Of a stretch of 64,000 nucleotides of DNA, positions 3,231 through 59,179 are shown one piece after another. The stretch is taken from the IMG/VR virus record IMGVR_UViG_3300021400_000091, positions 1-64,000 of that record; one strand, 5' to 3'. The notes under the pieces are model-generated. The model had not been told where the DNA came from, did not search any database, and was given only the letters and a program-made list of their open reading frames with translations. The translations under genes and the position numbers were made by a program. How positions within the stretch are numbered: the stretch's first letter is position 1; each line of letters begins with the position of its first letter. Source of the stretch: a virus. Taxonomy: Duplodnaviria; Caudoviricetes.

Positions 3231-4124
3231 CTATACACAATTACATTTTTTTGAAGAACTAGACCCACTAGCGGGCTTCTGTGTCGATTTAGAACCCCCG
3301 AAAGTATTAATGTAAAATGCAGATTGCCATAGGTCACTATCATTTATATCTTCATTAGTATTACCATTAGTAACACTTCTCTTTGCTTGGTCTTTAAGTT
3401 GAGTCCATAGCCAAAATGGATTAGTACCATATTGACTAGCTTGAAGATTCATAACAGGATGTTTATAACCTCTTGTCAACATCTTATACATACAATAATA
3501 GCCAATAGCTTCAATTAGAAGTCCATTGGCAGGAATTACTGGAAATTCACATCCATTATATGTTTCAGTTTTAAGAGATTTAACTTCTGCATAAACAACA
3601 TCAGTATCAAAGTTTAGTTCTAATCGGTTTCTGCCAATACGAACATAATTGTGCTCAGTGTTATTATTGGGATTACCAATATTACCTTCAACTACATTGT
3701 ATCTAGGAGGATACTTTGTTTGTTGATAAACTGCTTGACTTACTGGATGAGTTATATTATCGTCCGTATGGACAACTGTATGAGGAGTTACTATTCTATC
3801 TATTTCAGCACACTGAGAACTCCCCGTAGAGGGAGATGATGCTCCGCAACCACAACTTTTACTATCTTCTGCTTTTACTATCTCACAACCATTCTTATCA
3901 TATAACTTAAAATCATCACATCCTAAATCACAATCAGCAATTCCAAATCTACCATTTATACGAATTGGTATTCGTTTAGTTTCATCCTCTAATAAATCAA
4001 GCATAGACATAGCATCATATACCCATGCTGCTACTCTAGGGATCCAATCACTATTATCAGGATTGAAGTCATTATCAATCTTAGCGATTATTCTTCCTAT
4101 ATTTGTACCTTGATTCTTCGACAT
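3231..4124 (-). CDS. Tail tubular/ring protein (P22 gp4-like)
   Basis: 297 aa; N-terminal IGRIIAKIDNDF..WIPRVAAW and PVIP..LIEAIGYYCMYK pattern; directly upstream of muzzle gene as in crAss phages. Confidence 0.7.
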   Translation of the reverse strand: MSKNQGTNIGRIIAKIDNDFNPDNSDWIPRVAAWVYDAMSMLDLLEDETKRIPIRINGRFGIADCDLGCDDFKLYDKNGCEIVKAEDSKSCGCGASSPSTGSSQCAEIDRIVTPHTVVHTDDNITHPVSQAVYQQTKYPPRYNVVEGNIGNPNNNTEHNYVRIGRNRLELNFDTDVVYAEVKSLKTETYNGCEFPVIPANGLLIEAIGYYCMYKMLTRGYKHPVMNLQASQYGTNPFWLWTQLKDQAKRSVTNGNTNEDINDSDLWQSAFYINTFGGSKSTQKPASGSSSSKKCNCV

Positions 4125-5010
4125 TACGAATAAATTTATAATAATATTCTGGATGTTTAATTAGAATGACATTTAGTTTAACAGTTGTATCTACTTGTAG
4201 ATTATAAACTTCTTCATCTGTATTACAAATAGCTGCAAGTTCTTCATAACTCATTCCTTTAAACTTACCTAATTTCTTATCTTTGTAAAATTCAATATTT
4301 CTAGAAGAATAAATTTTACTATCAGATAAAGTTATTTCATAATAATAAGAGCCTTTTCTATATTTGACATATTCTACACCATCATAAGGTATTCCTTTTT
4401 CTTCATATAATTTAGCCTCTGCTTTATCATAAGGCTTTAACCCCTTATCTAAGAGTTCTTTTTTAGCCTTACGAGTAGCAGAGAAATCTACAACTTTACC
4501 TACATCATCTCTAAGTTTATATCTATTAATGCTAATAACACCAAGACCATTGTTATACCTATAACCAAAACCTTGAAGTAAATTACGATTAACTGTTTCA
4601 TAATAAGTTTCAAGTATAGCTCGATATTGAGCATACGTCACGTTAACTCTATCATCACAAAGTGAAAGAAGTTTATTATAATTGGTTCGTGACTTAATTA
4701 GCTTACAATATCTAGCTAGAGTTATAAGTAGTCTTCTATCGTCAGGATTATCATTATCCCTAAGACATCTCATTGTTAGTTGATAAAGTGATTCTTCAGC
4801 ATCTACTAGTTCATCAATTATCTCTCTACGGGGTGATAATGGTTTTCCTAATAGTGCTTCGATAGCAACAATATTTTCAACTATCAATGATTTACTAGCA
4901 TTAATACTTTTTGTTAATTCAGTTACTTTATTGCTATAATTATATTTGTCAACTTTAGCTCTATTTATGAAATTAAAATAATATTCTTTTTGATTTAAAT
5001 CACAGGTCAT
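4081..5010 (-). CDS. Crassvirales IHF-like conserved protein (tail module)
   Basis: 309 aa; LLQGFGYRYNNGLGVISINRYK..VDFSATRKAK resembles the HU/IHF-like crAss family located between ring genes. Confidence 0.55.
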   Translation of the reverse strand: MTCDLNQKEYYFNFINRAKVDKYNYSNKVTELTKSINASKSLIVENIVAIEALLGKPLSPRREIIDELVDAEESLYQLTMRCLRDNDNPDDRRLLITLARYCKLIKSRTNYNKLLSLCDDRVNVTYAQYRAILETYYETVNRNLLQGFGYRYNNGLGVISINRYKLRDDVGKVVDFSATRKAKKELLDKGLKPYDKAEAKLYEEKGIPYDGVEYVKYRKGSYYYEITLSDSKIYSSRNIEFYKDKKLGKFKGMSYEELAAICNTDEEVYNLQVDTTVKLNVILIKHPEYYYKFIRNVEESRYKYRKNNR

Positions 5011-5729
5011 TGAGCTGTTAATTGACTAGGTATTTCGTTTGTTTGTTTAACTAATTGACCATTAATTGTTTCCAATACTAATTTCTTAATATCATTAACC
5101 ATATCTTCTGGAATAAGAAACTCGTTATCTTCAAGTTCTATAAGTTTATCAGATATTTCTTCTGTTATACCATTATATAAATTTAATTCTTTAAATTCAT
5201 CATCTTGATTTAGATTATCCAAAATTAAATTTGGATATTCAAATGCTGCTTCAACAGTTATAAACTGTAAATCTTTAAGTATATAGTTTTTAGTTGTATC
5301 TATATAAATATAATCGTTAAGATAATCATATGTTACAGAAGGACAAAAACCTGGAAGATTAGCATAATATTTACTCGTTGCAGTTCTTACAAATGCTATC
5401 TCAATAGGATTTTCAACACCTATTGTTCTAACAGAACTAAAAGGTAAATTATTAGTTAATCTTACAGGTCTAGGAACTTTATTTTTAGTTCTCTTTATTT
5501 TAGTAGTATTATTAAATCCAACTAAATCTCCATCTGGAACATCAATTAATTCACATCTGAATCTCTGTTGAAGCCCTCTATCAATATAATTATGTCCTTC
5601 ATAGCTATGTCTAATTAGTTGATTACGACTATGAATTATGGACAAAGCTATTGCTCTTTTAGCAGCAACATTATCTTGTTGTTGAATACTATGAGCAATT
5701 TCAGATGTTAATTGATTAAGTGTTGGCAT
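5007..5729 (-). CDS. Ring/tail structural protein
   Basis: 240 aa; MPTLNQLTSEIAH, KRTKNKVPRPVRL, YDYLNDYIY, EFLIPEDMV motifs; crAss ring-protein synteny. Confidence 0.65.
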   Translation of the reverse strand: MPTLNQLTSEIAHSIQQQDNVAAKRAIALSIIHSRNQLIRHSYEGHNYIDRGLQQRFRCELIDVPDGDLVGFNNTTKIKRTKNKVPRPVRLTNNLPFSSVRTIGVENPIEIAFVRTATSKYYANLPGFCPSVTYDYLNDYIYIDTTKNYILKDLQFITVEAAFEYPNLILDNLNQDDEFKELNLYNGITEEISDKLIELEDNEFLIPEDMVNDIKKLVLETINGQLVKQTNEIPSQLTAQ

Positions 5730-5754
5730 ATTATTTTAAATAGCTTATACAATA

Positions 5755-6294
5755 TTATTCTTCAGCTCTATAATAAACATGAATACAACTCAAGGCTTTT
5801 AATATATCTGCATCTGTATTTTGATTGCTAGTGCCGCTAGGTATAAAATTAAAACTTGTCAATCCATTAGTTAAAGAGGTTTTAATAATATTTGTTAAAT
5901 AATCATTTGCCTCTAACATACTATTATTATCAACAATATCAATTATATCTTCTCTAAAAGCATAAATCTTTATTAAATTACTACCAGCTGTAGTAGTTAT
6001 AAATATAGTTTTAGATTGATTTGCTAGTGGTTTAACGTCAAATTGTAAATCCAGCTTATCATAAACAAAATCTGTACAGCGAAATCTAATATTTAAATTA
6101 TCAAAATCTTTAATTGCAAATTCTACTTTAACAAATTTATCCCAAGTAAAGTCATCTAACCTTGTTTTATTATTTAAATAACTAAATGGTATTACTCTAA
6201 GACCTTCTGAACTAGAATCACCATTATTTTTTGTTGTTGAAAAATAACCAATAATGTTATTTTTAAAATTCTTAATTGTTGATGTTAGTTTCAT
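5755..6294 (-). CDS. Hypothetical protein (variable tail region)
   Basis: 179 aa ORF co-oriented and tightly packed. Confidence 0.6.
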   Translation of the reverse strand: MKLTSTIKNFKNNIIGYFSTTKNNGDSSSEGLRVIPFSYLNNKTRLDDFTWDKFVKVEFAIKDFDNLNIRFRCTDFVYDKLDLQFDVKPLANQSKTIFITTTAGSNLIKIYAFREDIIDIVDNNSMLEANDYLTNIIKTSLTNGLTSFNFIPSGTSNQNTDADILKALSCIHVYYRAEE

Positions 6295-6306
6295 TTTTCT
6301 TTTTAA

Positions 6307-11098: not shown

Positions 11099-11260
11099 TT
11101 AATTTAAATTGTTAATAACTTCACTTATTTTAACTTTTGCAATTTCATCAATATACTCATCAAGTACATCGTTGTCATTACAAAAAGTTTGGCAATCATT
11201 TATAATATCTTTAGCAATATTTGATAAATCTTTGCTATAAGAATTTAATATCTCGTTCAT
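11099..11260 (-). CDS. Small hypothetical protein (53 aa)
   Basis: Hand-translated MNEILNSYSKDLSNIAKDIINDCQTFCND...; ATGA overlap with upstream stop. Confidence 0.5.
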   Translation of the reverse strand: MNEILNSYSKDLSNIAKDIINDCQTFCNDNDVLDEYIDEIAKVKISEVINNLN

Positions 11261-12849
11261 GATATATTTCTTATATATGGTTCAATAGATGCTACATATT
11301 CATAGGAAGGATTATTAGTTACAGATGCACTCATATCTGCTACTCTTTCATCTATATTAGCTGCAACTACGTCAGAACTTCTATCAGTAGGAATAACTAC
11401 TTGGTCATTATTATTATATCTAGCTACACTTTCGAAATCATCAAACAATATAATCATACTATATGTAACATTTGCATCACTATCTATAGTTCCATCTACA
11501 CAATTAAGCATTGGCAATAGCATTATACTAAATTTAGTATTTCTAGGAATAATAAATCTAGTTAAATTTAACTCAGTCCTACCCCAAAATTGAGGTATAG
11601 ACATTCGTAAATTATTTTCATTAAATATTTTTTGCCCACTAAAATATGAACCTACACCTCTATCATGTCCTGTACCTTTATTATATTTTCCTCCAGTAGT
11701 ATCTTGGTTCTTATAATAATTAGCTATATGAAATATAAATTTAAGCTTCTCAGTAAATACTAAAGCATTATATGTTTCAGAATTTAATACATCTAATTCA
11801 TCTGCTCCTCCTATTCCATCATCTAGTCCAATCATAGAGAATAAATCAATATTACATTCAGTATTTATACAATCAAATATATATTCATAATTATCTAAAG
11901 CTGTTGTTCTTATATTTGAGAAACCATTTATTACAAATATTCCATTTTGATCAATAGCAACATATGCTTTAGAATTTATAACTTTATCATTTCTATGTAA
12001 TAATCTTAATTTGCTAGAAGTCCATACTCTGTCAACAATAGTAGGAGTTATTATATAAATATCACCAGCAAATAATAAATCCTGTGTAAGAGTCAATGTT
12101 GTAATTAACTCATCATCATCATTATTAATAAGTATTCTATCAAAGGCATCTCTATAATCAGGAACTTTAAATAATATCCCACCTATTGTTGCAATATCAA
12201 TTTTATTACCTATACTTAACTTAAGTGTTTTAGCATCATTAGTAAATGAAGGAATAGCATGAATAATGAATCCATTTATTCTTGAACTTAATTCTCCATT
12301 GTTTATAGTCTCTAGCGCACTACTTCTAATGACGCTAGTATTATGTGTATTATTATTTTCATTAACTTCAGTAATCAATATATCGTTTGAATTTAATGTA
12401 GTTATATCATCATATATTGAAATATATTGTCTAGTAACAGAATTATAAACCCATACTTTCTTTTTATCTTCTCTTGTTGTTCCATACAACTCTCCTTCTG
12501 GGTTATCTATATCATCAATATCTCCAGATACTGTTACAAATAAATTATATTCTTTAATACTTGAACTTATTTCTATAACATTTACATATTCTAAGTCTGA
12601 TAATGTACTCAGTTGAGGTAATTTAACACTTCTAAGACCTATATTATTTATTTCTCCATTAAATACATTAAACCAATAATTTTCATTACCTATAGATGTA
12701 TTTGCTGGAACATTCGTTTTAGAAATATATACACTCCCCGTAGAGGGAACTTTCACCACACTGAGCTTTTTATATGCTTTAGTAGAATCAAAATCACCTT
12801 CAATAACAAATCCTATTCTACCAAGACTAACTTCTTTATTTATTGCCAT
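11257..12849 (-). CDS. Tail fibre/spike (receptor-binding) protein
   Basis: Probable start MAINKEVSLGRIGFVIEGDFDSTKAYKKLSVV..YISKTNVPANTSIGNENYW, an N-terminal module typical of Bacteroidota phage fibres. Confidence 0.6.
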   Translation of the reverse strand: MAINKEVSLGRIGFVIEGDFDSTKAYKKLSVVKVPSTGSVYISKTNVPANTSIGNENYWFNVFNGEINNIGLRSVKLPQLSTLSDLEYVNVIEISSSIKEYNLFVTVSGDIDDIDNPEGELYGTTREDKKKVWVYNSVTRQYISIYDDITTLNSNDILITEVNENNNTHNTSVIRSSALETINNGELSSRINGFIIHAIPSFTNDAKTLKLSIGNKIDIATIGGILFKVPDYRDAFDRILINNDDDELITTLTLTQDLLFAGDIYIITPTIVDRVWTSSKLRLLHRNDKVINSKAYVAIDQNGIFVINGFSNIRTTALDNYEYIFDCINTECNIDLFSMIGLDDGIGGADELDVLNSETYNALVFTEKLKFIFHIANYYKNQDTTGGKYNKGTGHDRGVGSYFSGQKIFNENNLRMSIPQFWGRTELNLTRFIIPRNTKFSIMLLPMLNCVDGTIDSDANVTYSMIILFDDFESVARYNNNDQVVIPTDRSSDVVAANIDERVADMSASVTNNPSYEYVASIEPYIRNIS

Positions 12850-13525
12850 ATAATTCGCAATTTTCAATTTCCAAATTAAAACTAGTAGGAGTAAAAAACT
12901 CAAACATAGTATCAGTATTATCAGTGTCAACATAACACTTTTCAACTGGACATTTAATATCTCTGTAAAGTTCTTGATCTTCAGTCAAAGTAAACGCTCC
13001 ACTATATTCAACACCTTCTCTATATATATTACTAATCTGTCCTTCTACAAATTTCATAAGAAGTTTACCTTCTTTTTCTCTATGGTTAGTTAATAAATTA
13101 ACTGCAACCATAAATGTTACAAAACAATTTATTACATTATGTTGACAGTAGCATTCTGACTTACATTCATCAAGAACTGTGTCAAGATTTTCTAGAAAAT
13201 ACTCTAGAACTGTTATTCCAAGACATTGATATTCTTCAGGAATTTCGATTGTTTCAATAGAACCATTTATTTCTATATCTTTGAAATTCTCATCTGGCTC
13301 TTCCAATTCATTTACTATTTCCTGTATTTTATACTTTAGTTCCTCGGAGAGTTCATTGTAGAAATCTAGACAATACAAAATTATTAAATAAAAGATTTTT
13401 TCGCATCTGAGCGACTTTTGCTGTCCGCTTACCGATACTACATATTTAGAGTTTTGCGCTTGTGTAGACGAAAGCAGACCCCATAGCGTTGATGCTACTT
13501 TAAGTTTTGCATTATCTAAATCCAT
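12836..13525 (-). CDS. Conserved tail-associated protein
   Basis: 229 aa; IEIPEEY..ECKSECYC..VINCF pattern; position before fibre gene. Confidence 0.5.
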   Translation of the reverse strand: MDLDNAKLKVASTLWGLLSSTQAQNSKYVVSVSGQQKSLRCEKIFYLIILYCLDFYNELSEELKYKIQEIVNELEEPDENFKDIEINGSIETIEIPEEYQCLGITVLEYFLENLDTVLDECKSECYCQHNVINCFVTFMVAVNLLTNHREKEGKLLMKFVEGQISNIYREGVEYSGAFTLTEDQELYRDIKCPVEKCYVDTDNTDTMFEFFTPTSFNLEIENCELYGNK

Positions 13526-20825: not shown

Positions 20826-20973
20826 ATCAAAAATAACTAACATTGCATTATTAAGTACTACCGAACTCATTGAAAACTGCCCGTAAAGACAAACACATCA
20901 GTTAGTTATACAAAAATAGTCACCTACTTTCACAAGCAAGTGACTACATTAACACAATAAAACAAAAAAACTA

Positions 20974-38275: not shown

Positions 38276-38569
38276 ATGGCTCAATTAGTAAGTTTTAATA
38301 AAGAGATTATTAAAGACATTATTGAAATGTCTGGTGTTAAGGTTAACGAAGATAATGTTCTGTTCATTAAATTTAATGATCAGAAACATAAAACATATAT
38401 TGTTACTAAAGCAAATACCGAATCAGGTTTTGCTTATAAAGGTGTTGTTAATTTCCCCGTAGAGGGAATCATCACCTATAATAAAGGTAACAATAGTATT
38501 GTTCTCTTTGATAAAAGCTATCTTGTATGGGATATAGAATTAGGTAAGCACAAATTTATTAATGGTTAA
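38276..38569 (+). CDS. Hypothetical protein
   Basis: 97 aa ORF. Confidence 0.6.
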   Translation: MAQLVSFNKEIIKDIIEMSGVKVNEDNVLFIKFNDQKHKTYIVTKANTESGFAYKGVVNFPVEGIITYNKGNNSIVLFDKSYLVWDIELGKHKFING

Positions 38570-41750: not shown

Positions 41751-42249
41751 ACATATTGATACTCGAAATGAAATAAAACGAGTAAAAACTTGTTATAATT
41801 GTCCGGCTAAACTATATGCAAAAGATGGTGAAACTATAAAACTTGGATTTGGTAATTCATTTGCTGATAAAGTAATAGTTTTACCATCTTATAGTTTAGT
41901 AGAGAAAGGAGATTATATTAGTTGTGCTAAGGTTCTATTGGACATTGTGGGCAGTCGGTTATATGAGGATTTCTATGTTACCAGGGATATTAAGTGTTAC
42001 AATGTGAGTAGTTATGATATTCATGATGCTTGTGTTGCAAATTGTAATACTTTTTTGAATTATGAGTTATCTAAATTCATAGGTAAAAAGCTATTTGTCT
42101 TTGGTAATGTAGATTTATCTAGAATTGATAAAAATATTATTAATACTTATAAAGTTTATAGATTATTTAATCCTTATATAATGATTGTTGGAGAACAGGT
42201 TTTAAAAAATAAGTTTATTAATGATGTAAAAATGATGATGAACTTATGA
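41740..42249 (+). CDS. Uracil-DNA-glycosylase-like (family 4, probably degenerate)
   Basis: CYNCP, GFGN, YVTRDIKC, C..FLNYEL cysteine pattern. Confidence 0.55.
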   Translation: MEIKHIDTRNEIKRVKTCYNCPAKLYAKDGETIKLGFGNSFADKVIVLPSYSLVEKGDYISCAKVLLDIVGSRLYEDFYVTRDIKCYNVSSYDIHDACVANCNTFLNYELSKFIGKKLFVFGNVDLSRIDKNIINTYKVYRLFNPYIMIVGEQVLKNKFINDVKMMMNL

Positions 42250-44540
42250 TTAAAATGTGGGCTTATGATGTTGAAGTCCTACCTAATTTCTTTTCAGTTG
42301 TATTTGTAGATATAGTAGATTATATGAATAAATTTGAGGATTGTGTTATAAATGATAAAGCAATTCCTTTAACTCAAAAACTTTCAGTAGAAGAAATAAA
42401 AGATAGATTAAGTAAAGTAAATACTAAATCTTTTTATATTACTGATAAAAATGATGACCAGTTATTACAAATGATTGGATTCATTAATGCTATGATACCA
42501 CATCGTGAAAATGGTGTTGCTATTAGAAACGATGTTTTTGGCTATAATAGTATGTCTTATGATAAGCTGATGATTGCTTGTCTGTTAATGAATGCAACGG
42601 AATGTAATAATACTAAAGAGTTAATTACTAAATTATATACTACAAGTAAAAAGATTATAGAATTACAAGATAAAGATGATAACGTAAAAGATTATTATAT
42701 AGAAACATTAAAGAATTATAAATTACCATATAAAGATATAGATATAATGAAAGTATTTGCACTTAATAAAGTAGGTGCAATGAATGATGATAATGGTGAA
42801 AAGAAATATTATGGTAAAGGACTTAAACAAGTCAGTATCAACCTTCAATGGTATGATATTATAGAATATGAGCTACCAGATATATCAAATGTTGATAGAC
42901 ATTATTATAATAAAGATGTTTTCGATCCTTATACTGATAAACAACTAAGTAAGATAATAGAGAAATGGGATAGATATATTATAGATGATTGGATTGCAGA
43001 TACTATGAAATATAATACAAATGATGTTTTCATAGTTGCTGAAATGGTTAGATTATATAGTGATGAGATTAAATTACGATATAATTTAACTAAAGCTTAT
43101 GAAGTTGATTTACTTAATAGTTCTAGAAGTAACATAGCTGATAGATTATTTATTAAGTTTTATTCTGAATTTAGTGGTCTTGACTATAAAAGATGGGGTA
43201 AAAAGAAAACTGAAAGAAGAGCAATGGCTTTTAATAAAGTTATCTTTGATAATATTAAATTTAAAACTCCAGAGTTACAGAATCTTTTAGAAGAAATGAA
43301 AAATGTGACTATTTATAGTATAGGCAAAGATTCATTTAAGAAAGAGATCAAACTTGGTAATTTAGTATATACTATTGCTACTGGAGGATTACATAGTCAA
43401 GATATTCCTAGAGAATTAAAAAGTAAAGTACCAGCTATCATTCCCTCTACGGGCAGTGTATGGCAGGCTATGGAAAGCGATGATTACATTTATGTACATT
43501 GGGATATTTCTAGTTTTTATCCTAGTATTATATCTGTATATAAAGTTGCTCCTAAGCATATGGATACTTTTACTTTTTGTAAACTAGTTACATGGTTAAG
43601 AGATACCAGAATTGCTGCTAAACATAGTGAAGAACCTTATATAGATGGTATTCCTAAAAAATTATTAGCTGAAGCATTAAAGATTGTGATTAATAGTATA
43701 TATGGTAAGTTAGGTTATGAATATGGTGATATTTGTGATAGACTTGCAGTGCTAAAAGTAACAATAAATGGTCAGTTAATGATTATGATGCTATGTGAAG
43801 AACTAGAACTTAATGGTATAGAAGTTGTATCTGCAAATACAGATGGTATTGTAGTTAAATTATATAAGGATAAAAAAGAAACATTTGATGAAATAGCTAA
43901 TAGATGGATGGAATATACAGGACTAAGTGCTGATAGTGAAGAGTATAAAGCTTATATTAATAGAGATATTAATAATTATATTTGTCAAGAGTTTAATGGA
44001 AAAGTAACATATAAAGGTGCATTAAATCCTAATATGTATTTAGTTGATTTATCTAAAGGATATGATATGCCTATTGTTGCTAAAGCAGTCAGTAAATATT
44101 TTCTAAATGGAGTTCCTATTTTAGATACTTTATATAATGAAGATAATATATTAATGTTTTGTAAAACACAAAATGTTGGTAAACAATTTCATGTAGAATT
44201 TAAAAAAGGAACTGAAACTACTGAACTACAAAGATATGTAAGATTTTATGTATCTTTAGATGGAGGAAGTATTTATAAAGTTAGAAATGTAGTGGTAACT
44301 ACAGGTCAAATGAATAATATGGCTGCTGGATATTATGTTACTGTACTTAATACATTAGATGATAGAAATATTGCTGTTAGAAATATTAATTATACTTATT
44401 ATTATAATGAATGTATGAAAATCATAGACCCTATTAAACTCAGAATTAGTCCTGGACAAGAACCTGGTAGAGGTAAAGCCGGTAAAACTTTGATTAAGAA
44501 ATATAGTGGACAATATAATACATTATTTGACGATGAATGA
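42246..44540 (+). CDS. polB: DNA polymerase family B
   Basis: ExoI YDVE, ExoII GYNSMSYD, motif A WDISSFYPS, motif B KIVINSIYGKLG, motif C SANTDG. Confidence 0.92.
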   Translation: MIKMWAYDVEVLPNFFSVVFVDIVDYMNKFEDCVINDKAIPLTQKLSVEEIKDRLSKVNTKSFYITDKNDDQLLQMIGFINAMIPHRENGVAIRNDVFGYNSMSYDKLMIACLLMNATECNNTKELITKLYTTSKKIIELQDKDDNVKDYYIETLKNYKLPYKDIDIMKVFALNKVGAMNDDNGEKKYYGKGLKQVSINLQWYDIIEYELPDISNVDRHYYNKDVFDPYTDKQLSKIIEKWDRYIIDDWIADTMKYNTNDVFIVAEMVRLYSDEIKLRYNLTKAYEVDLLNSSRSNIADRLFIKFYSEFSGLDYKRWGKKKTERRAMAFNKVIFDNIKFKTPELQNLLEEMKNVTIYSIGKDSFKKEIKLGNLVYTIATGGLHSQDIPRELKSKVPAIIPSTGSVWQAMESDDYIYVHWDISSFYPSIISVYKVAPKHMDTFTFCKLVTWLRDTRIAAKHSEEPYIDGIPKKLLAEALKIVINSIYGKLGYEYGDICDRLAVLKVTINGQLMIMMLCEELELNGIEVVSANTDGIVVKLYKDKKETFDEIANRWMEYTGLSADSEEYKAYINRDINNYICQEFNGKVTYKGALNPNMYLVDLSKGYDMPIVAKAVSKYFLNGVPILDTLYNEDNILMFCKTQNVGKQFHVEFKKGTETTELQRYVRFYVSLDGGSIYKVRNVVVTTGQMNNMAAGYYVTVLNTLDDRNIAVRNINYTYYYNECMKIIDPIKLRISPGQEPGRGKAGKTLIKKYSGQYNTLFDDE

Positions 44541-45894
44541 TACATTACTAGTTAATAGAGTATTAAATACATTTCATAATATGAGATGTAGAATGTCTAT
44601 GTATTGTCTTGATGAAGATATTAGACTTACCATAGTTAAAACTTTGATAGAAAGAATGGTAGAAAAGAATAATACAATAAAGATTCTAGTAGCAGTAGAC
44701 GATTTTAATGATAGAACATCTTTAAAAAAGATTATAAATCCTGATTTATTTGCTAATAATATAATATGTTTAACAACAGGATTTATTAATCCTTATTATA
44801 ACTATAAATATAATTGTTTAATATATATTGGTAGTTTTATAGAAGAAAAAGTATTCCTAAAATTAATAGAACAGAATAAGTTTGGACTAATATTGCTAAC
44901 TGAAAATATTATGGATAGTAATTTTATAAATTACATTCGTCGAACTTGTCCAGATGCTGGATTTGCTATCCAAGATTATCGTAGTGATGTGACACGCCCC
45001 GTAGAAGGAGAATTATGTCCAGTTGACTTATCTAATGATGATAGAGAATTATATAAACAATATACTAGATACACTAATGATACAATATCTGTATTTGGTA
45101 GCATAGAAATGGTAAATATGGCTAGAAGTGGTAATTCTAAAACAAATACTAGTGCTACCGAAATTAGAGATACTATTGCTAGAAATAATGGATGGAGTGA
45201 AACTTTAGATACAAGTCAGGATTATAATAGACAAATAGATGATATTTATAATCCTAATGCTCTATATGAAAGAGCGTGTAATTTCTTTAATATTGCTGAT
45301 AAAAGAAGAAAACTAGTTATACAAAATGAACTTAAGCTAGAAAAGATATTAGAAATAATAAAAGAAAATGACACTGCTAAAATATTGATAGTTAGTAAAA
45401 ATGACCAATTTGCTAATACTGTATCTGAATATCTAAGACAAGAAGGGTATCAATGTGGTGATTATCACGATGATATTCCAGAACAACTTGATATTGATGA
45501 TAATGGTGTGCTTAGGTACATAAAAAGCGGAAAGAACGCTGGAAAAGTGCGAATTATTAAATCTAAAGCGATTTCAAGTCGTGACGAACAAAGGTTTAAT
45601 AACTCTATTATCCGGCTACTTTCAATCAAATCTGCATCGAATGTGGGCTTGTCAGTGCATTGTGATATGGTCATTTTCACGTCAACATTATGTGATGATA
45701 TAGAAAGTTTTAAGACTAGATTTAGAAATGTTAAAATAAATGGTATTCCGAATAAAGTATATTATATATATAGTAGTGATACAATAGAAGAAAATAATAT
45801 AAAGAACTTGCAAACAATACCTTTTTTAACACTACATAGTGAGCAAGAAAAAAATGCAGTGTTTGATGAAAATAGTAACCAAATAATTTTGTAG
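44506..45894 (+). CDS. SF2 helicase-like protein, probably inactive
   Basis: 462 aa; C-terminal KLEKILEII..KILIVS helicase-C-like fold, no Walker A; crAss synteny after PolB. Confidence 0.55.
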   Translation: MDNIIHYLTMNDTLLVNRVLNTFHNMRCRMSMYCLDEDIRLTIVKTLIERMVEKNNTIKILVAVDDFNDRTSLKKIINPDLFANNIICLTTGFINPYYNYKYNCLIYIGSFIEEKVFLKLIEQNKFGLILLTENIMDSNFINYIRRTCPDAGFAIQDYRSDVTRPVEGELCPVDLSNDDRELYKQYTRYTNDTISVFGSIEMVNMARSGNSKTNTSATEIRDTIARNNGWSETLDTSQDYNRQIDDIYNPNALYERACNFFNIADKRRKLVIQNELKLEKILEIIKENDTAKILIVSKNDQFANTVSEYLRQEGYQCGDYHDDIPEQLDIDDNGVLRYIKSGKNAGKVRIIKSKAISSRDEQRFNNSIIRLLSIKSASNVGLSVHCDMVIFTSTLCDDIESFKTRFRNVKINGIPNKVYYIYSSDTIEENNIKNLQTIPFLTLHSEQEKNAVFDENSNQIIL

Positions 45895-48819: not shown

Positions 48820-48878
48820 ATTCTTAATAGTTAGCCTAGGGTTATAGAATATTCTATAGCTCTAGGCTATTTTTGTAT

Positions 48879-50066
48879 ATGGGAAGAACTATAAATAGTG
48901 GTAAATTAACAAAACAATATGTTCTCTCTAAAGTTAGCCAAATAACTATTTTTAGTACTTATCTTGGATTATCAGATTCTATAATTCAACATTGTATAGA
49001 AACTGGTGAGTTAATTCGTTCTCCATTAAGAATTGATGCTCATCCAACTTGCGGATTTAGATATGATAAAAAAGGTAAACTTAAATTTAGAGATTTTGCT
49101 GGATATTTTTGGGGAGATTGTTTTGATTTAGTAGCTTATGTTATTAGTAATATAACAGACAAAAAGATAGATGTTTCTGATAAAAAAGATTTTATAGGAG
49201 TTTTGACCCATATAACTCGAGTTTTTAAAGATATATTTTATGGCAAAGAAAGAGATGTAAATCTCATAAACGAAATAAACACTTCTATTGATTCTATCAA
49301 AAATAAAAAGAATATAATAGAACTAGTAACTAGGGATTGGAATAATGATGATGTAAAATATTGGAAACAATTTGGAATAGGACTAAAGGATTTAAATATC
49401 AATTTTGTATATCCTGTTGATCAATTCTATGTGAATAGAAAAATAAATCCTAAACCCAAATATTATTATGATGTTAAAGACCCTTGTTATGGTTATTTAT
49501 TAGGCAGAGATAGAAATGGAATTAGTAATATCAAGTTGTATTTTCCTAAAAGAGATAAAGGTTATACTAAATTTATGTGTAATTGTAATCATCTTGAAGG
49601 CATTTATCAACTTGAAAGAAACGATTATAACTGTATTGTTATTACTAAATCTACAAAAGATAGAATTGCAATAGGCTGTGCTGTTAAGCGATACATTTCC
49701 CTCTACGGGGGAATTAATGTAGGCAACATTGGAGTTATTAATATTCCACATGAAACATATCATTTAAGACATAACGAGTATGATTGGCTTACTAGTAAAC
49801 TATCTAAACAAGGAGTTATATTATCTCTTATGGATAATGATAGAACTGGTAAAGTTGAAGCGCTTTGGCTTCGTAAAACTTATGGGATAAAACCTATATT
49901 GATTAATCGTAAATATAATGCCAAAGATTTTAGTGAACTCGTTGCGAATAATGATAAAGATACCGTAGATAGGTTAATTACAGAAACTTTAATGTATTTA
50001 GAAAATGTCAAAGTACAATATCTTAAATACGAGAAAGAACACAATTCTTTGCCGTATTGGAACTAA
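48879..50066 (+). CDS. DNA primase (DnaG-like TOPRIM)
   Basis: SPLRIDAHPTCGF, ITKSTKD, MDNDRTG, AKDFSE motifs. Confidence 0.85.
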   Translation: MGRTINSGKLTKQYVLSKVSQITIFSTYLGLSDSIIQHCIETGELIRSPLRIDAHPTCGFRYDKKGKLKFRDFAGYFWGDCFDLVAYVISNITDKKIDVSDKKDFIGVLTHITRVFKDIFYGKERDVNLINEINTSIDSIKNKKNIIELVTRDWNNDDVKYWKQFGIGLKDLNINFVYPVDQFYVNRKINPKPKYYYDVKDPCYGYLLGRDRNGISNIKLYFPKRDKGYTKFMCNCNHLEGIYQLERNDYNCIVITKSTKDRIAIGCAVKRYISLYGGINVGNIGVINIPHETYHLRHNEYDWLTSKLSKQGVILSLMDNDRTGKVEALWLRKTYGIKPILINRKYNAKDFSELVANNDKDTVDRLITETLMYLENVKVQYLKYEKEHNSLPYWN

Positions 50067-50974: not shown

Positions 50975-51312
50975 AAGATGAGATAATTGTTTGCAAATGT
51001 GCAGAGATAAATCATTGTTGTATTATTACATACAATGAAGAAGATAAAGAAGTTTATCTAAATATTCATTTAAATAGACTTCCTTTTTGGAAGAGATTAA
51101 GATATGGAATTAAATATATCTTTGGTTATAGAAGCACTTTAGGTGAAGGTGCTTTTGCTGAAGTAATTGTAGGAGAAAAAGACTGGAAAAAGTTTAAGAA
51201 GATTTCATATATGCTTAAACCTGAAAGTATAGAGAATAATCCAAAGATTAGAAAAGGTATAGAAAAGATTGTTGGTAATAACAAAAAACAAGATTATGAT
51301 GTACACCTTTAA
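50971..51312 (+). CDS. Hypothetical protein
   Basis: 113 aa; CKC..H, FWKRLRYGIKYIFGY. Confidence 0.6.
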   Translation: MKDEIIVCKCAEINHCCIITYNEEDKEVYLNIHLNRLPFWKRLRYGIKYIFGYRSTLGEGAFAEVIVGEKDWKKFKKISYMLKPESIENNPKIRKGIEKIVGNNKKQDYDVHL

Positions 51313-52528
51313 TTGGATTAAAGCTCTTTATAGAAGAAATAACTATAATGAGCCATGTGTTTGGGCTATAGAGAAATTTGATGATACTAGTCTAGATATA
51401 TATCATGGTATAGTTGGAAAAAAGTTAATTAAAGAAGTAATAGTTACTCCCAGAAGTTTAGATGCTGAGATTAAATCTAGAGTTAATGCTAAACGAAAAG
51501 CCGGATATAAATATCTTTATGAAATTAAAGATAATGTTAATCTGCCCGTAGAGGGAGAGTTACTGAATTATCTCAATACATATCTTCCTATAGATAGAAC
51601 TAATAGTGAAGGTAATCTATTACCTATGCTAGCAAAAGTATTTGATAATACTAGAAATAAACTATTTAAGAATGTTGCTAGTTATATTGGTCAATGGAAA
51701 ATAAATGGATTGAGATGTTTTATTAAAGTAGAAATTAATGAAAATGATTTATTTAATAAATACAAACTTATATTTCAATCTAGAGAAGGAACTATTTGGA
51801 CTAGTTTAAATAATTTAGAGCAATATCTTCTTTCAGTTATAGATGATAAACTTCTTAAACATATGTGGGAACAACATATAGCTTTAGATGGAGAATTATA
51901 TATTCCTAATTGTACAGTGAATCAAATTAATCATTATGTAAAAGATCCTACTAGTTTTAGAAATAAAGATGTTCAATATTGGTGTTATGATTTAGCTGCT
52001 GAAGATACGCCACAGTATAGAAGAACTTATATTCTTCGTTCTTCATTTGCTAATTTTCTTATTGATATTAAATCTAAAGAAGAACATCTTGCTAATACTA
52101 ATAGATTCGTAGTTCTTCCTACGTTTTTAATTTATTCAGAAGATGATGCTTTTAATTATAGAAATGAATTTATAGATATTGGCTTTGAAGGTCTTATTAT
52201 GCGTCATCCTGATAAAGAATATCAATTTGGTAAACGTAATGGTTCTATGATTAAATATAAAAGAACCACTGATGGTGTGTTTACTATTGTTGATATTTAT
52301 CCAGAAGGAGGAATAAGACATGAAATACCTTTATTCAAATGTAAAAATGATATTAATAATGAGACATTTGAAGTACATATTAATGGAACACTAGATTCTC
52401 AAGCCTATTATCTTAAACATAGAGATGAATATATAGGTAAAAAGCTATATATTAGCTATGGTGAAAGAAGTGGAGTTAATCAAGTTCCATTTCATGTAAA
52501 GGAAGTTAAACTCTATGGAAATAGTTAA
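51269..52528 (+). CDS. ATP-dependent DNA ligase
   Basis: Motif I QWKINGLRC, LDGELY, EGLIMR, KRNGSMIKYK. Confidence 0.9.
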   Translation: MLVITKNKIMMYTFNWIKALYRRNNYNEPCVWAIEKFDDTSLDIYHGIVGKKLIKEVIVTPRSLDAEIKSRVNAKRKAGYKYLYEIKDNVNLPVEGELLNYLNTYLPIDRTNSEGNLLPMLAKVFDNTRNKLFKNVASYIGQWKINGLRCFIKVEINENDLFNKYKLIFQSREGTIWTSLNNLEQYLLSVIDDKLLKHMWEQHIALDGELYIPNCTVNQINHYVKDPTSFRNKDVQYWCYDLAAEDTPQYRRTYILRSSFANFLIDIKSKEEHLANTNRFVVLPTFLIYSEDDAFNYRNEFIDIGFEGLIMRHPDKEYQFGKRNGSMIKYKRTTDGVFTIVDIYPEGGIRHEIPLFKCKNDINNETFEVHINGTLDSQAYYLKHRDEYIGKKLYISYGERSGVNQVPFHVKEVKLYGNS

Positions 52529-53271: not shown

Positions 53272-53474
53272 GTAATATGTTTCCTTTTATACAAGTTGAT
53301 GTTAAAGGTTATGATGAACCACATTATATTAATGTCAACTTAATTGCAAGAGTTTATAGAGGAAAAGATAGACAAATATTTGTACAATTTATTGATGGTA
53401 CTACTATAGAACTTGAAGAAGGTTCTCTTATTACAGTAACAATGAGAAAAATTAAAGAACTATATGAAAACTAA
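53268..53474 (+). CDS. Small hypothetical protein
   Basis: 68 aa; YINVNLIARVY. Confidence 0.55.
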   Translation: MSNMFPFIQVDVKGYDEPHYINVNLIARVYRGKDRQIFVQFIDGTTIELEEGSLITVTMRKIKELYEN

Positions 53475-54201
53475 AATTGTAGCAGTTGCTGGAAAGAAAG
53501 GCAGTGGTAAAGATACAGTGATTAGTATGATTCATTATATTAATACTGTTGGTACTATTGCTAGTTATGAAGGATGGGTAGAGCGTAGTTCTTCCCTTAC
53601 GGGGAGTTTATCATTAGTTAAAGTTGCTTTTGCTGATCCTCTTAAAGATATTCTTGCAGGAATGTTTAAAATACCTAGAGCATATTTTGATGACAGAATA
53701 CATAAGGATTTAACTTACTTTTGTCCACATAATGGTAAATTTGTTACTTGGGCTGATATTCCAAAATTTAATTACCTTTATATATGTAAAGATGAATACG
53801 ATTTATTTGAGTTTGCTGATTTTATTAATAGTGAACTTAAAGTTAAAGGTAAATATATTGTTCTCAAATTAAGAGAACTTATGCAATATTTTGGAACAGA
53901 TATTTGTAGAAAAATTCTAGGTGAAGATATATGGATTAATATTACTGAAAATACAATAAAGCATTTGACTAAAGTTCATAATGTTTGTTATGTTTCTGAT
54001 GTTAGATATAAGAATGAAGCAGATTTAATATGTGAACTTGATGGTAGAATAATTAAAGTTATTAGAAATGAGGATGATGAAGATGAATACTCTCATGATT
54101 CTGAAATTGTAGACATTAATCCACATATTATTATATATAATAACAAGAGTCTTGTAAACCTATTTTATCAAGTACTTCAAATAACACAGGATGTATTATG
54201 A
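53464..54201 (+). CDS. Deoxynucleoside monophosphate kinase
   Basis: GKKGSGKDT P-loop, FADPLK, RELMQYFGTD, SDVRYKNE. Confidence 0.88.
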   Translation: MKTKIVAVAGKKGSGKDTVISMIHYINTVGTIASYEGWVERSSSLTGSLSLVKVAFADPLKDILAGMFKIPRAYFDDRIHKDLTYFCPHNGKFVTWADIPKFNYLYICKDEYDLFEFADFINSELKVKGKYIVLKLRELMQYFGTDICRKILGEDIWINITENTIKHLTKVHNVCYVSDVRYKNEADLICELDGRIIKVIRNEDDEDEYSHDSEIVDINPHIIIYNNKSLVNLFYQVLQITQDVL

Positions 54202-58180: not shown

Positions 58181-58487
58181 AGGCTTCATTGGCTGTGCTA
58201 AATTTACTCATGTTGAAAAAGGACATACATATTTCATTAGAGATGTTCTAAAATCTAAACATCCTGATACTGGTGAATGGTATTATGCAGTACTATATTA
58301 TCAAGTAGAATCTAAAGAAAGATTTGTAAGGAGTTTAGAATCATTTTTAGAGAATTTTATAATGCTAGATGAAGATATATTTTGTCCTATAAAAAGATGT
58401 TATTGTGAATTTTGTTATATGATTCCTATAACAAAGTATTTCTTTTGTAATAAAGAATTTGAAAACGAAAAATGTTGTAAATCATAA
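58116..58487 (+). CDS. DUF1653-like protein
   Basis: FTHVEKGHTY..HPDTGEW..VLY..FVRSLESF; true start probably 58161. Confidence 0.6.
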   Translation: MKQMSFPKLSEEQVGMAVQELKGFIGCAKFTHVEKGHTYFIRDVLKSKHPDTGEWYYAVLYYQVESKERFVRSLESFLENFIMLDEDIFCPIKRCYCEFCYMIPITKYFFCNKEFENEKCCKS

Positions 58488-58493
58488 GAAATT

Positions 58494-58778
58494 ATGAAAG
58501 AACTAAAAGATACTGTTGATTTGATGCTGTCTGATGATTATGTAGACAGATTTAAAGCTGAATATTATCAACTAGAAACTAGATTTATTAAACTTGCGTC
58601 GATTGTTGGAAATTGGGATAAACTTAATTTTACCCCAAATATGAGTAGAGAATTTTATATAAAGCAGCTTCATATTATGGCAATGTATTTATATTATTTA
58701 ATCTTTAGAAGTGGCATAGAAAAAGTAAATATTGATAAGAGTGAAAATATAGATGAAATTATCCTTGTATATATGTGA
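58494..58778 (+). CDS. Conserved phage protein (crAss001_48-like)
   Basis: MLSDDYVDRFKAEYYQL..QLHIMAMYL. Confidence 0.65.
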   Translation: MKELKDTVDLMLSDDYVDRFKAEYYQLETRFIKLASIVGNWDKLNFTPNMSREFYIKQLHIMAMYLYYLIFRSGIEKVNIDKSENIDEIILVYM

Positions 58779-58963
58779 TGCCTAAAAAAGTAATTGCCAC
58801 TTATAATATCTTGAATAATTGTTATCAATTTGAATGTCCTACTTGTGAAAAGAAACATATAATGAATCTTTCTATGGAAGAAGAAATGACTCTTGAACTT
58901 GGTTATGGACTTCAAGTTGAATGTAATGATTGCGGACAAGATATAAAGGTATTCATTGAGTAG
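58775..58963 (+). CDS. Small zinc-ribbon protein
   Basis: CPTC..CNDC. Confidence 0.6.
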   Translation: MMPKKVIATYNILNNCYQFECPTCEKKHIMNLSMEEEMTLELGYGLQVECNDCGQDIKVFIE

Positions 58964-59179
58964 CAATTCTCCCTTTACGGGCAGTGAGTAGTAAGCAACA
59001 TTGGTGTTACGCTTGCGTTAACATTGATGATTATATTAGTCAAACTGTAATAATTAAAATTAGTGTTAATTGGTTTTGTACTTGTGCTAATTTTGCGAAA
59101 TCAGCTTATTATAATCTGCCCGTAGAGGGAATCATTGCTACTTACACTATTTTACTAACAATTTTTCAATGTTGCAACA

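What the first reader, a model, noticed from the sequence alone, without database searches (positions are those of the whole stretch)
3821..59130. Genome-wide GC-rich signal CCCGTAGAGGGA written through core genes in different frames and both orientations
Seen: ten 14-bp sites with the exact core CCCGTAGAGGGA (3821+, 12735+, 27653-, 29933+, 37599-, 38454+, 43442-, 49698-, 51543+, 59117+) and six variants, mostly purine swaps (4821-, 20878+, 25935+, 44996+, 53592-, 58970-), usually 1-8 kb apart. At about 30% GC a rough estimate gives under 0.001 chance copies of this 12-mer per window. Eleven copies lie inside genes and translate differently: PSTG (ring protein, tail fibre, PolB), PVEG (ligase, lipoprotein, helicase-like, 38276 ORF), SLYGG (primase), SPRRE (IHF-like), SLTG (dNMP kinase), LPTG (spanin-like). 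So the constraint is on the nucleic acid, not the protein. Orientation is independent of transcription direction in both arms, which argues against a plain promoter or an oriented stoperator. The TCCC-N6-GGGA version can form a mini-hairpin. Inference: a phage-encoded site-plus-protein system, e.g. parS-like or nucleoid-organising sites for one of the IHF-like/RepL/HTH proteins, packaging or ejection marks, recombination/priming sites, or relics of a tiny mobile element tolerated in protein loops. I know of no description of it in Crassvirales, but cannot verify novelty.
Basis: partly seen in the sequence, partly recalled or inferred. Interest (0 to 1): 0.9.

Follow-up and report, generated by a model that had tools for sequence, protein, structure and literature searches.

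The report
Strand-alternating DNA signal in crAss phages
This crAss-like gut phage, like its whole family including the prototypical crAssphage, keeps a GC-rich 12-base DNA word at the same spots inside and between genes on alternating strands, so it looks like a recognition signal I could not find described, and its reader and purpose are still unknown.

Summary
CCCGTAGAGGGA occurs 10 times in the window (0 expected) and 14 times in the 88,420-bp genome. The 18 copies with up to 2 mismatches alternate strictly between strands.

It is the core of an element of about 20-36 bp. It is under selection at the DNA level:
- A codon-preserving shuffle leaves about 0 coding copies.
- Three or more reading frames are used.
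- 94 of 173 aligned ortholog positions in 17 Intestiviridae genomes keep a same-orientation copy, and none keeps an opposite one.

Lineage "dialects" occur in all 20 relative records scanned (15 IMG/VR, 5 GenBank), including Carjivirus communis and crAss002. The motif is absent from four genomes of other crAss families.

It is not a mobile insert, an oriented promoter or stoperator, or a conserved hairpin.

The alternation reduces to a short-range exclusion of same-strand copies. Below 1 kb there are 73 inverted neighbour pairs and 2 direct ones. A hard-core null explains most of the even spacing.

My best guess, at low confidence, is a strand-specific cis signal for an unidentified DNA-processing factor. 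The main rival is an unoriented binding site whose direct repeats are purged by the phage's annealing recombination system.

I found no description in print. This scan has reported the same signal before, on at least 8 other crAss genomes.

The parts
3823..3834 (+). exact core; antisense in ORF 3231..4124 (reads PSTG)
   Evidence: A same-orientation copy sits at the aligned place in 12 of 17 relatives.
4821..4832 (-). 1-mismatch copy; sense in ORF 4081..5010 (reads SPRRE)
   Evidence: Lineage-specific: 0 of 12 aligned relatives.
12737..12748 (+). exact core; antisense in ORF 11257..12945 (PSTG)
   Evidence: 0 of 5 aligned relatives.
20880..20891 (+). decayed copy (3 mismatches) with the typical 5' flank
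   Evidence: The close relative L012 has a 1-mismatch copy at the matching place.
25937..25948 (+). decayed copy (3 mismatches)
   Evidence: 8 of 11 aligned relatives keep a copy here. L012 has a 1-mismatch copy.
27653..27664 (-). exact core; sense in ORF 27374..27811 (PVEG)
   Evidence: 3 of 5 aligned relatives.
29935..29946 (+). exact core; intergenic between two minus-strand genes, antisense to their transcription, next to hairpins
   Evidence: Also present in L004; L012 has it with a 1-base deletion.
37599..37610 (-). exact core; intergenic, antisense to transcription, followed by a long perfect hairpin
   Evidence: Also present in L004.
38456..38467 (+). exact core; sense in short ORF 38276..38569 (PVEG)
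   Evidence: L004 keeps the core while the flanks differ.
43442..43453 (-). exact core; antisense in the family B DNA polymerase gene 42246..44540 (PSTG), in an indel-rich loop
   Evidence: 9 of 17 relatives.
44998..45009 (+). 1-mismatch copy; sense in ORF 44506..45894, homologue of the SNF2-like ATPase gp17 of BK010471
   Evidence: 16 of 17 relatives, the best conserved position.
49698..49709 (-). exact core; antisense in the primase gene 48873..50066 (SLYG)
   Evidence: 15 of 16 relatives.
51545..51556 (+). exact core; sense in the ATP-dependent DNA ligase gene 51269..52528 (PVEG)
   Evidence: 10 of 16 relatives.
53592..53603 (-). decayed copy (3 mismatches) in ORF 53464..54201 (dNMP kinase domain)
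   Evidence: 0 of 11 aligned relatives.
58970..58981 (-). 1-mismatch copy; left arm of a fold-back element formed with 59119+
   Evidence: 191 nt folds at -30 kcal/mol, z = -5.7.
59119..59130 (+). exact core; right arm of the fold-back element near the convergence of two gene arms

Best explanation
CCCGTAGAGGGA is the invariant core of an asymmetric DNA recognition element about 20-36 bp long. The Intestiviridae crAss-like phages keep it by purifying selection on the DNA itself. There are 15-34 copies per genome, at largely fixed positions, in protein loops and between genes.

Shown:
- The motif is real and family-wide.
- It is positionally conserved and independent of reading frame and of transcription direction.
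- Its spelling drifts by lineage.
- Copies on the same strand exclude each other at short range, whereas copies on opposite strands do not.

Inferred:
- A sequence-specific factor, probably phage-encoded because the spelling co-evolves with the phage lineage, reads the site in a strand-specific (polar) way.
- The site acts as a cis signal for a DNA-processing machine of replication, recombination or packaging. Examples would be a site-specific nick or priming/loading site on that strand, or a signal that stops or modifies a tracking nuclease or translocase.
- Under this reading a second copy of the same polarity nearby is redundant and decays, while a copy of the opposite polarity serves the other direction. 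That would produce the alternation.

I hold with high confidence (about 0.85) that this is a selected DNA-level recognition site. I hold the polar processing mechanism only weakly; the confidence below is for the whole statement.
For: Enrichment:
- 10 copies against 0 expected in the window.
- 14 exact and 18 near copies in the genome.
- About 0 coding copies after a codon-preserving shuffle, against 11 observed.

Extended asymmetric context. In Carjivirus communis it grows to a consensus of 20 or more bp over 31 copies.

Family-wide distribution:
- 4-30 copies in each of 15 IMG/VR records G001-G015. The two lowest counts are 16-17-kb fragments.
- 7-29 copies in 5 named Intestiviridae.
- The backwards-pattern controls gave 0-3.

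Positional conservation:
- 94 of 173 aligned cells keep a same-orientation copy and 0 an opposite one.
- Core identity is 0.81-0.99, against 0.67-0.85 in the immediate flanks and 0.83 farther out.

Polarity:
- G000 alternates at 17 of 17 steps (2^-17 by my arithmetic).
- 212 of 288 steps alternate over 14 genomes, and 272 of 370 with matrix-called sites.
- Neighbour pairs below 1 kb: 73 inverted, 2 direct. At 300-1000 bp: 33 against 0. Above 5 kb: 44 against 41.
- In G000 the alternation runs on across both switches of gene direction, at about 31 kb and 59.6 kb. It is therefore a property of the DNA, not of the transcripts.
- Permuting strand labels gives less even same-strand spacing in 11 of 13 genomes at P<0.02.
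Against: - No reader protein was found.
- No physical evidence exists for nicks, primers or ends. All 20 public runs found are kept as contigs only.
- A null model that only forbids same-strand neighbours closer than 2-3.5 kb explains most of the even spacing. The largest same-strand gap is not smaller than under that null (P 0.05-0.93). So 'needed at regular intervals' is not shown.
- Gaps of 15-50 kb on one strand exist.
- GC and AT skew do not shift at the sites, as a replication-polar element might cause.
- Synonymous divergence is raised only within 15 nt of the sites (0.21 against about 0.15, n=270). There is no broad nick-type hypervariability.
- Known phage nick motifs lie on one strand only (PMC3517423, passages read).
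- The phage encodes a Gam-like Sipho_Gp157 protein. That makes a host-RecBCD-directed Chi-like role less necessary.
- Sites in related genomes share ancestry, so the pooled counts are not independent events.
Confidence: 0.35

Rival explanations
1. The motif is an unoriented binding site for an architectural or partition-type DNA-binding protein, for example for genome condensation, packaging or plasmid-like maintenance. Its orientation has no function. The alternation arises because close direct repeats of a 12-24-bp word are deleted by the phage's own single-strand-annealing recombination system, so only inverted neighbours survive.
For: - The exclusion of direct pairs is strictly short-range. 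It is almost complete below 1 kb (2 of 75), partial at 1-5 kb (47 of 192) and absent above 5 kb (41 of 85).
- The hard-core null accounts for most of the even spacing.
- The genome encodes a homologue of the gene annotated RecT in BK010471 and a PD-(D/E)XK exonuclease (PHROG 298).
- There is no skew shift at the sites.
- Inverted pairs closer than 300 bp number 40. My own back-calculation for two independent strands expects about 14 (from the counts). They fold into strong hairpins.
Against: - The element is asymmetric over 20-36 bp.
- At conserved positions the orientation is never reversed: 0 opposite of 173 cells.
- If orientation were neutral, nearby inverted copies would be as redundant as direct ones. 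Yet pairs at 300-1000 bp occur at about the number expected for two independent strands (33 observed, about 31 by my calculation).
- Deletion between 12-16-bp repeats several kb apart is expected to be rare. This is general knowledge and was not measured here.
- No deletion joint between two sites appeared among the 15 joints listed (91 more were not shown) in four public runs.
Confidence: 0.27
2. The motif is a set of site-specific single-strand interruption (nick) sites, as in T5, phiKMV-like and tf/LUZ24-like phages, but placed on both strands.
For: - It shares with those motifs a short asymmetric consensus, positions conserved among relatives, and lineage-specific spellings (PMC3517423, passages read).
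- The phage encodes its own ATP-dependent ligase.
- Three contig ends in two public runs fall on two sites: 51546 and 51552 in X7, 53599 in X2. Only the longest pieces were listed and 1,928 were not shown. Strain bubbles near the variable flanks can break contigs too, so I give this no weight.
Against: - All known nick motifs sit on one strand. Here the counts are 9 and 9.
- Opposite-strand sites only 30-300 bp apart are common (40 pairs). If both were nicked they would nearly break the duplex.
- There is no broad hypervariability around the sites.
- No raw reads were available to see ends.
Confidence: 0.12
3. The motif is a transcription or RNA-level signal: a promoter, terminator part, stoperator-like roadblock or RNA-processing site.
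For: - 102 of 370 sites are intergenic, although only about 7% of this genome is non-coding.
- Between co-directional genes the motif is antisense in 59 cases and sense in 24.
- Inverted pairs make terminator-like hairpins.
Against: - 268 of 370 sites are inside genes, with sense and antisense balanced at 127 to 141.
- The alternation ignores gene direction.
- No Rfam family overlaps a site.
- Sigma-70-like hits are at chance, 113 against 99.
- The crAss transcription preprint found sigma-70-like middle promoters and no common motif for early transcripts in phi14:2 (10.1101/2020.03.07.982082, passages read).
Confidence: 0.07
4. The copies are relics of a tiny selfish insertion element (like a MITE or a Rickettsia palindromic element) tolerated in protein loops.
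For: - The sites lie in variable, indel-rich loops.
- There is a longer shared flank at some copies.
Against: - The same positions are occupied across subfamilies at 25-79% protein identity.
- The core is kept while the flanks diverge.
- Some losses occur without a gap, for example 67737 against G002.
- I saw no terminal repeats or target duplications.
- The 16-mer found outside the family in IMG/VR gave single copies only, in 19 of 21 loci.
Confidence: 0.03

Closest known systems
Localized single-strand-interruption (nick) motifs of phages T5, phiKMV-like and tf/LUZ24-like
   Same: A dispersed short asymmetric consensus, about 4-14 or more copies per genome, with positions similar among related phages and spelling that differs by lineage. 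The function of those nicks is also unknown (PMC3517423, passages read).
   Different: Those motifs are confined to one DNA strand. Here both strands carry equal numbers, with close inverted pairs. No nick has been shown here.
DNA uptake sequences of Neisseriaceae (DUS) and Pasteurellaceae (USS)
   Same: A 9-12-bp core with weaker flanks, both orientations, written through genes in several frames, lineage 'dialects', and inverted pairs that form terminator-like hairpins. The DUS/USS properties are recalled. Of PMC2346458 I saw only the search listing and the start of the abstract.
   Different: Those are bacterial signals read by a competence receptor, at about one per kb. This is a phage signal at about one per 3-6 kb, with exclusion of same-strand neighbours. 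No uptake step is known in phage biology.
Chi sites read by RecBCD/AddAB
   Same: An over-represented, polar, strand-specific signal read by a DNA-tracking enzyme. It marks DNA as 'self' (recalled knowledge).
   Different: Chi is 5-8 nt, host-defined and co-oriented with replication. This motif is 12-24 bp, phage-lineage-specific and not strand-biased. The phage also carries a Gam-like gene.
Stoperators of Cluster A mycobacteriophages
   Same: About 20-35 asymmetric 13-14-bp sites per genome, in coding and non-coding DNA (recalled knowledge).
   Different: Stoperators are oriented with transcription. Here sense and antisense are balanced. No repressor is known here.
REP/BIME elements of enterobacteria
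   Same: Copies in alternating orientation (recalled knowledge).
   Different: REPs are extragenic imperfect palindromes in tight clusters. Here 72% of the sites are inside genes and kilobases apart.

Membership tests
Phage localized-nick motifs (T5, phiKMV-like, tf) | All sites lie on one DNA strand | tested here: not met
   9 plus-strand and 9 minus-strand sites in G000. Both strands are used in all 20 relative records scanned. The tf paper states that the sites are in one strand only.
Phage localized-nick motifs (T5, phiKMV-like, tf) | A physical nick with 3'-OH and 5'-P at the site in virion DNA | not testable with these tools
   All 20 runs found are stored as contigs, and no molecule ends are visible.
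Phage localized-nick motifs (T5, phiKMV-like, tf) | Short asymmetric consensus at similar positions in related phages | tested here: met
   94 of 173 aligned cells keep a same-orientation copy.
DNA uptake sequences (DUS/USS) | Both orientations, several reading frames, lineage dialects | tested here: met
DNA uptake sequences (DUS/USS) | Read by the competence machinery of a naturally transformable bacterium | not testable with these tools
   The carrier is a phage genome. No such machinery was looked for or expected.
Chi sites | 5-8-nt host-specific word, co-oriented with replication | tested here: not met
   The core is 12 bp with flanks. Strand use is equal. There is no skew change at the sites.
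Stoperators (Cluster A mycobacteriophages) | Site orientation follows the direction of transcription | tested here: not met
   127 sense against 141 antisense coding sites. The alternation crosses gene-direction switches.
In-frame selfish mini-elements (MITE / RPE type) | Presence or absence as an insertion relative to orthologues; young, non-orthologous copies | tested here: not met
   The positions are orthologous across subfamilies. A loss occurs without a gap at 67737 against G002.
Promoters (host sigma-70-type or phage RNAP) | Upstream of genes and co-oriented with them | tested here: not met
   72% of the sites are intragenic and orientation is balanced. The sigma-70 scan is at chance.
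parS / ParB-type partition sites | Palindromic site, clustered near the partition operon | tested here: not met
   The element is asymmetric and dispersed over the whole genome. A ParB gene was not searched for.
Known RNA families (Rfam 15) | Match at gathering score | tested here: not met
   Only 4 tRNAs matched in the window, none at a site.

The most novel reading that the evidence does not exclude
The Intestiviridae, including the most abundant human gut phage, run a phage-private, strand-specific 'self-marking' system. A lineage-specific word of 12-24 bp is written at fixed places on both strands. It is read by a so far unknown phage-encoded DNA-tracking or nicking factor that controls replication priming, recombination or nuclease attack. 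This would be a new class of genome-wide cis signal in viruses, comparable in logic to Chi or uptake sequences but with its own reader.
Probability: 0.2. Interest if true: 0.85.

Novelty: new variant of a known kind. Interest (0 to 1): 0.68.

Why it matters
The signal marks the genomes of a whole family of the most abundant human and animal gut phages. It is kept even inside the polymerase, primase, ligase and virion RNA polymerase genes.

Finding its reader would expose an unknown step of crAss-phage DNA metabolism. That could concern replication start, recombination, packaging or self/non-self discrimination. It could be tested directly in the cultured relatives (crAss002, 'Rudgehvirus jaberico') and in culture systems for Carjivirus communis.

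Practically, the lineage-specific spellings give a compact signature for recognising and typing Intestiviridae contigs. The rule that direct copies are never close is a constraint to respect when such genomes are recoded for study.

Tried and rejected
**Hairpin reading.** I compared the consensus lines by eye. The 5' flank can pair with the 3' purine run in only about 3-4 of 8 spellings, and the loop letters are invariant. I rejected the hairpin as the conserved feature. This was not a computed covariation test.

**Recombination-hotspot or mosaic-boundary idea.** Identity profiles of close pairs seemed to dip near some sites. The oriented average over 151 site rows showed only 0.865-0.877 at the site against 0.87-0.90 elsewhere. 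I dropped the idea.

**Nick-type hypervariability.** Only the nearest 15 nt have raised 4-fold divergence. First and second codon positions are raised within 30 nt. This fits relaxed loops.

**Skew change at sites.** None was seen (235 sites of 9 genomes, chosen as one or two per lineage out of 14).

**Reader protein.**
- RepL of BK010471 has no detectable relative in this genome.
- The ORFs next to site pairs have no informative Pfam or PHROG hits.
- The IHF-like ORFs have no significant PDB sequence match: none at E<=1 for 4081..5010, best E 0.11 and 0.2 for the other two.
- tblastn between crAss families was too insensitive for a presence/absence comparison.
- The spellings follow phylogeny, so co-variation with a protein had no power and I did not attempt it.

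**Public reads.** The 20 runs found hold the stretch only as contigs. No starts or ends were visible (table 6: none). Contig ends at 51546/51552 (X7) and 53599 (X2) coincide with two sites. I do not count them as evidence, because 1,928 pieces were not shown and strain bubbles can break contigs.

**Spacing null.** I replaced it with a label-swap chain. The number of samples per genome there is small (85-1,135), so its P values are rough.

**Literature.**
- The 12-mer on both strands: 0 papers.
- The 10-mers: 92 papers, and the 30 listed are primers and unrelated topics.
- One search was too broad and useless.
- The crAss RNAP preprint (passages read) does not mention the motif.
- Passage searches of the phage-plasmid preprint and the crAss001 atlas for other terms turned up nothing on it.
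The promoter lists of the RNAP preprint (its Supplementary file 1) could not be checked.

**IHF-like genes.** My passing idea that the IHF-like genes are the tail-hub proteins was wrong. In the crAss001 record gp42 is annotated HU/IHF-like and is distinct from gp38 and gp39.

Full report
**1.

CCCGTAGAGGGA occurs 10 times in the window, at exactly the places given. None of 100 dinucleotide-preserving shuffles produced a single copy. With up to 2 mismatches there are 13 matches against 0.54 expected.

The window is the first 64 kb of a single-contig genome of 88,420 bp with 29% GC. The whole genome holds 14 exact copies and 18 with up to 2 mismatches. They carry the characteristic 5' flank and score well above shuffles on the genome's own weight matrix.

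The core sits in a wider asymmetric context. Over the 14 exact copies this is A-16, G-15, C-14, T-7, A-6, A-5, Y-3, T-2, S-1, then the core, then R+12, G+18 and C+19.

**2. The constraint is on the DNA**

I permuted synonymous codons among 88 ORFs 200 times. A mean of 3.02 exact copies remained. These are the three intergenic copies that the shuffle does not touch. About 0 coding copies are therefore expected, against 11 observed.

Every PVEG (6), PSTG (4) and SLYG (2) tetrapeptide of the proteome is encoded by the motif.

I called 370 sites in 14 genomes with a weight matrix. Of these, 268 are coding. They divide into sense frames 100/26/1 and antisense frames 39/13/89. The nearly empty sense frame is the one where the motif contains a stop codon.

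**3. It is a family trait with fixed positions**

A PolB search in IMG/VR gave 21 relatives at 33-67% identity.
- All 15 IMG/VR records scanned (13 reached through PolB, 2 through the 16-mer) carry the motif within 2 mismatches: 13-30 copies in the 13 larger records, and 5 and 4 in two 16-17-kb fragments. The backwards pattern gave 0-3.
- So do Carjivirus communis, the prototypical crAssphage (16), cr3_1 (29), crAss002 (10), cr8_1 (10) and 'Rudgehvirus jaberico' (7).
- These named genomes belong to three subfamilies of the Intestiviridae.
- The spellings differ by lineage.
- In Carjivirus communis a seed of 7 letters finds 31 copies with a consensus of more than 20 bp.
- Genomes of three other families lack the motif. 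These are crAss001 (Steigviridae), cr127_1 (Crevaviridae), and cr52_1 and cr273_1 (Suoliviridae). Their matches number 3-5, against 6-9 for the control.

The positions are orthologous. For the G000 sites that lie in long ORFs, 173 site-by-genome cells could be aligned by tblastn in 17 relatives. Of these, 94 hold a copy in the same orientation within 8 codons, and none holds one in the opposite orientation.
- The copy in the SNF2-like ATPase gene is kept in 16 of 17 genomes.
- The copy in the primase gene is kept in 15 of 16.
- Three G000 sites (4821, 12737, 53592) have no counterpart.

In 163 aligned site pairs (of 235 site rows) from eight genome pairs, identity is 0.81-0.99 at the 12 core positions. 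It is 0.67-0.85 in the adjoining 30 bases and 0.83 farther out.

The sites sit in relaxed protein loops. First and second codon positions differ more within 30 nt (0.105-0.114 against 0.07-0.08). Four-fold sites differ more only within 15 nt (0.21 against about 0.15, n=270). Indels are common beside the sites.

Some losses happened without a gap, for example 67737 against G002. This excludes young mobile inserts.

**4. Orientation**

The 18 copies of G000 alternate strictly: +-+-+-+-+-+-+-+-+-. The chance of this is 2^-17 by my arithmetic. Another first-stage note, e1-6235341, had said the same.

The three decayed copies are the only ones that break the pattern.

The alternation continues across the two points where gene direction switches, at about 31 kb and 59.6 kb. 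It is therefore not a property of the transcripts.

Over 14 genomes, 212 of 288 neighbour steps change strand. With matrix-called sites on circular maps the figure is 272 of 370. These counts are not independent, because related genomes inherit the same sites.

I sorted neighbour pairs in 13 complete genomes by distance; the fragment G003 was left out:

| Distance | Inverted pairs | Direct pairs |
|---|---|---|
| below 1 kb | 73 | 2 |
| 300-1000 bp (a subset of the row above) | 33 | 0 |
| 1-5 kb | 145 | 47 |
| above 5 kb | 44 | 41 |

Permuting the strand labels over the fixed positions gives less even same-strand spacing at P<0.02 in 11 of 13 genomes.

Against a null that merely forbids same-strand neighbours closer than 2 or 3.5 kb, the observed evenness is only mildly better (P from 0.000 to 0.82). 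The largest same-strand gap is not smaller (P 0.05-0.93).

So the hard fact is a short-range exclusion of direct copies. A need for regular spacing is not shown. Earlier reports of this scan that speak of 'even spacing' should be read with that in mind.

**5. What it is not**

- Not a promoter or stoperator. Coding sites are 127 sense and 141 antisense. Sigma-70-like hits are at chance.
- Not a known RNA family.
- Not a conserved hairpin, from my reading of the consensus lines.
- Not a replication-polar element that leaves a skew mark.
- Not a mosaic boundary.

**6. Other features**

Sites are enriched between genes: 102 of 370, although about 7% of this genome is non-coding. Between co-directional genes, 59 are antisense and 24 sense.

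Close inverted pairs make strong fold-backs:
- 58955-59145 in the window folds at -30 kcal/mol with z = -5.7. This confirms note e1-6235344 in outline.
- In Carjivirus communis the pair at 28077/28177 folds at -106 kcal/mol, and the pair at 22901/22932 forms a terminator-like stem.

**7. Mechanism**

The evidence shows a selected, asymmetric recognition site whose spelling co-evolves with the phage lineage. That points to a phage-encoded reader.

Two readings fit the orientation rule.

(a) The site is polar. A neighbour of the same polarity is redundant and decays, while one of the opposite polarity serves the other direction. This fits a strand-specific nick or priming/loading site, or a signal for a tracking nuclease or translocase.

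(b) Orientation has no function. Direct repeats that lie close together are removed because the phage carries an annealing recombination system. It has a homologue of the gene annotated RecT in BK010471 and a PHROG 298 exonuclease.

I prefer (a) slightly, for three reasons:
- The element is asymmetric over 20-36 bp.
- Orientation is never reversed at conserved positions.
- Inverted neighbours at 300-1000 bp are as frequent as two independent strands would give. This is my calculation from the counts.

The preference is weak.

Known phage nick motifs share the dispersed consensus, the conserved positions and the dialects. However, they lie on one strand only (PMC3517423, passages read).

No run with raw reads was available, so ends and nicks could not be examined.

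**8. Candidate readers**

None could be named.
- The RepL-like label of 30525..30962 is unsupported.
- The two ORFs at 4081..5729 are homologues of the genes annotated as IHF subunits in BK010471. The one I scanned (4081..5010) has no Pfam hit, and neither has a significant PDB sequence match.
- The replication module holds a Dda-like helicase, PolB, an SNF2-like ATPase, a RecT-like protein, primase, ligase, a Gam-like Sipho_Gp157 protein and a DUF932 protein.

**9. Novelty**

Full-text searches for the 12-mer on both strands found nothing. Searches for the 10-mers found only unrelated papers among the 30 listed of 92. A term search combining crAssphage with nick, uptake-sequence and motif words found nothing relevant.

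The crAss virion RNA polymerase preprint does not mention the motif in the passages I read. Passage searches of the phage-plasmid preprint and the crAss001 structural atlas, made for other terms, turned up nothing on it. Supplements were closed.

Within this scan the same signal has already been reported and followed up on at least 8 other crAss genomes, with similar conclusions. This window adds another member lineage, from ruminant gut by the run records. It also adds:
- the strictest alternation seen in my set;
- the codon-shuffle test;
- the ortholog table;
- the hard-core null, which tempers the 'even spacing' claim.

**10. Verdict**

This is a real, family-wide, DNA-level recognition signal that I could not find described, with an unknown reader. 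The specific mechanism remains open.

Noticed in passing
MH675552.1 (crAss001), whole record; sites listed: crAss001 (Steigviridae) lacks the Intestiviridae motif. It has its own dispersed 12-mer, TCTCCAGAAGGA: 14 copies within 1 mismatch, on both strands, over 13.8-99 kb. This may be an analogous signal in a cultured, well-studied phage.
   Followed up: partly
NC_055886.1 (cr127_1), 10 places listed: A conserved element of about 45 bp (a TAAT-like box, then GGCCACAAGGGC and a conserved tail) occurs 10 times on both strands. Several copies form inverted pairs about 170-560 bp apart. It looks like a different kind of repeated regulatory or RNA element.
   Followed up: no
BK010471.1 28077-28200 and 95745-95890: In Carjivirus communis, inverted motif pairs lie about 540 bp and about 270 bp upstream of the two genes annotated RepL. 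The first pair folds at -106 kcal/mol. This may be origin- or terminus-related.
   Followed up: partly
BK010471.1, crAss002 and G002 sites: A subset of copies, mostly intergenic, is preceded by 3-5 tandem GC-rich pentamers (of the GCTNC kind). In the window the matching copies have 9-bp periodic TTGC units upstream.
   Followed up: no
window 29835-30046 and 37499-37710: The two intergenic copies share about 100 bp: the 3' end of the upstream gene, the motif, then hairpins. These are paralogous gene ends, as noted in e1-6235332.
   Followed up: partly
window 59646 to genome 73214: One open frame of 4,522 codons from stop to stop runs on the minus strand. By position and by site conservation it corresponds to the virion RNA polymerase gene of BK010471 (gp44). 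It is followed by a frame of 2,646 codons.
   Followed up: no
window 51546/51552 and 53599: Contigs of two public runs (X7, X2) end exactly at two motif sites. This could be strain bubbles in the variable flanks or a coverage effect. I could not follow it up because only contigs are served.
   Followed up: no
genome ends (G000 and relatives): The 'terminal repeats' of 55, 99, 107, 119 and 127 bp in these records look like assembler k-mer overlaps of circular assemblies rather than biological ends.
   Followed up: no
window 38334-39667: Depth in four public runs is 5-60 times higher over the tRNA cluster than elsewhere (table 2). This is most likely cross-mapping of tRNA genes from other organisms.
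   Followed up: no
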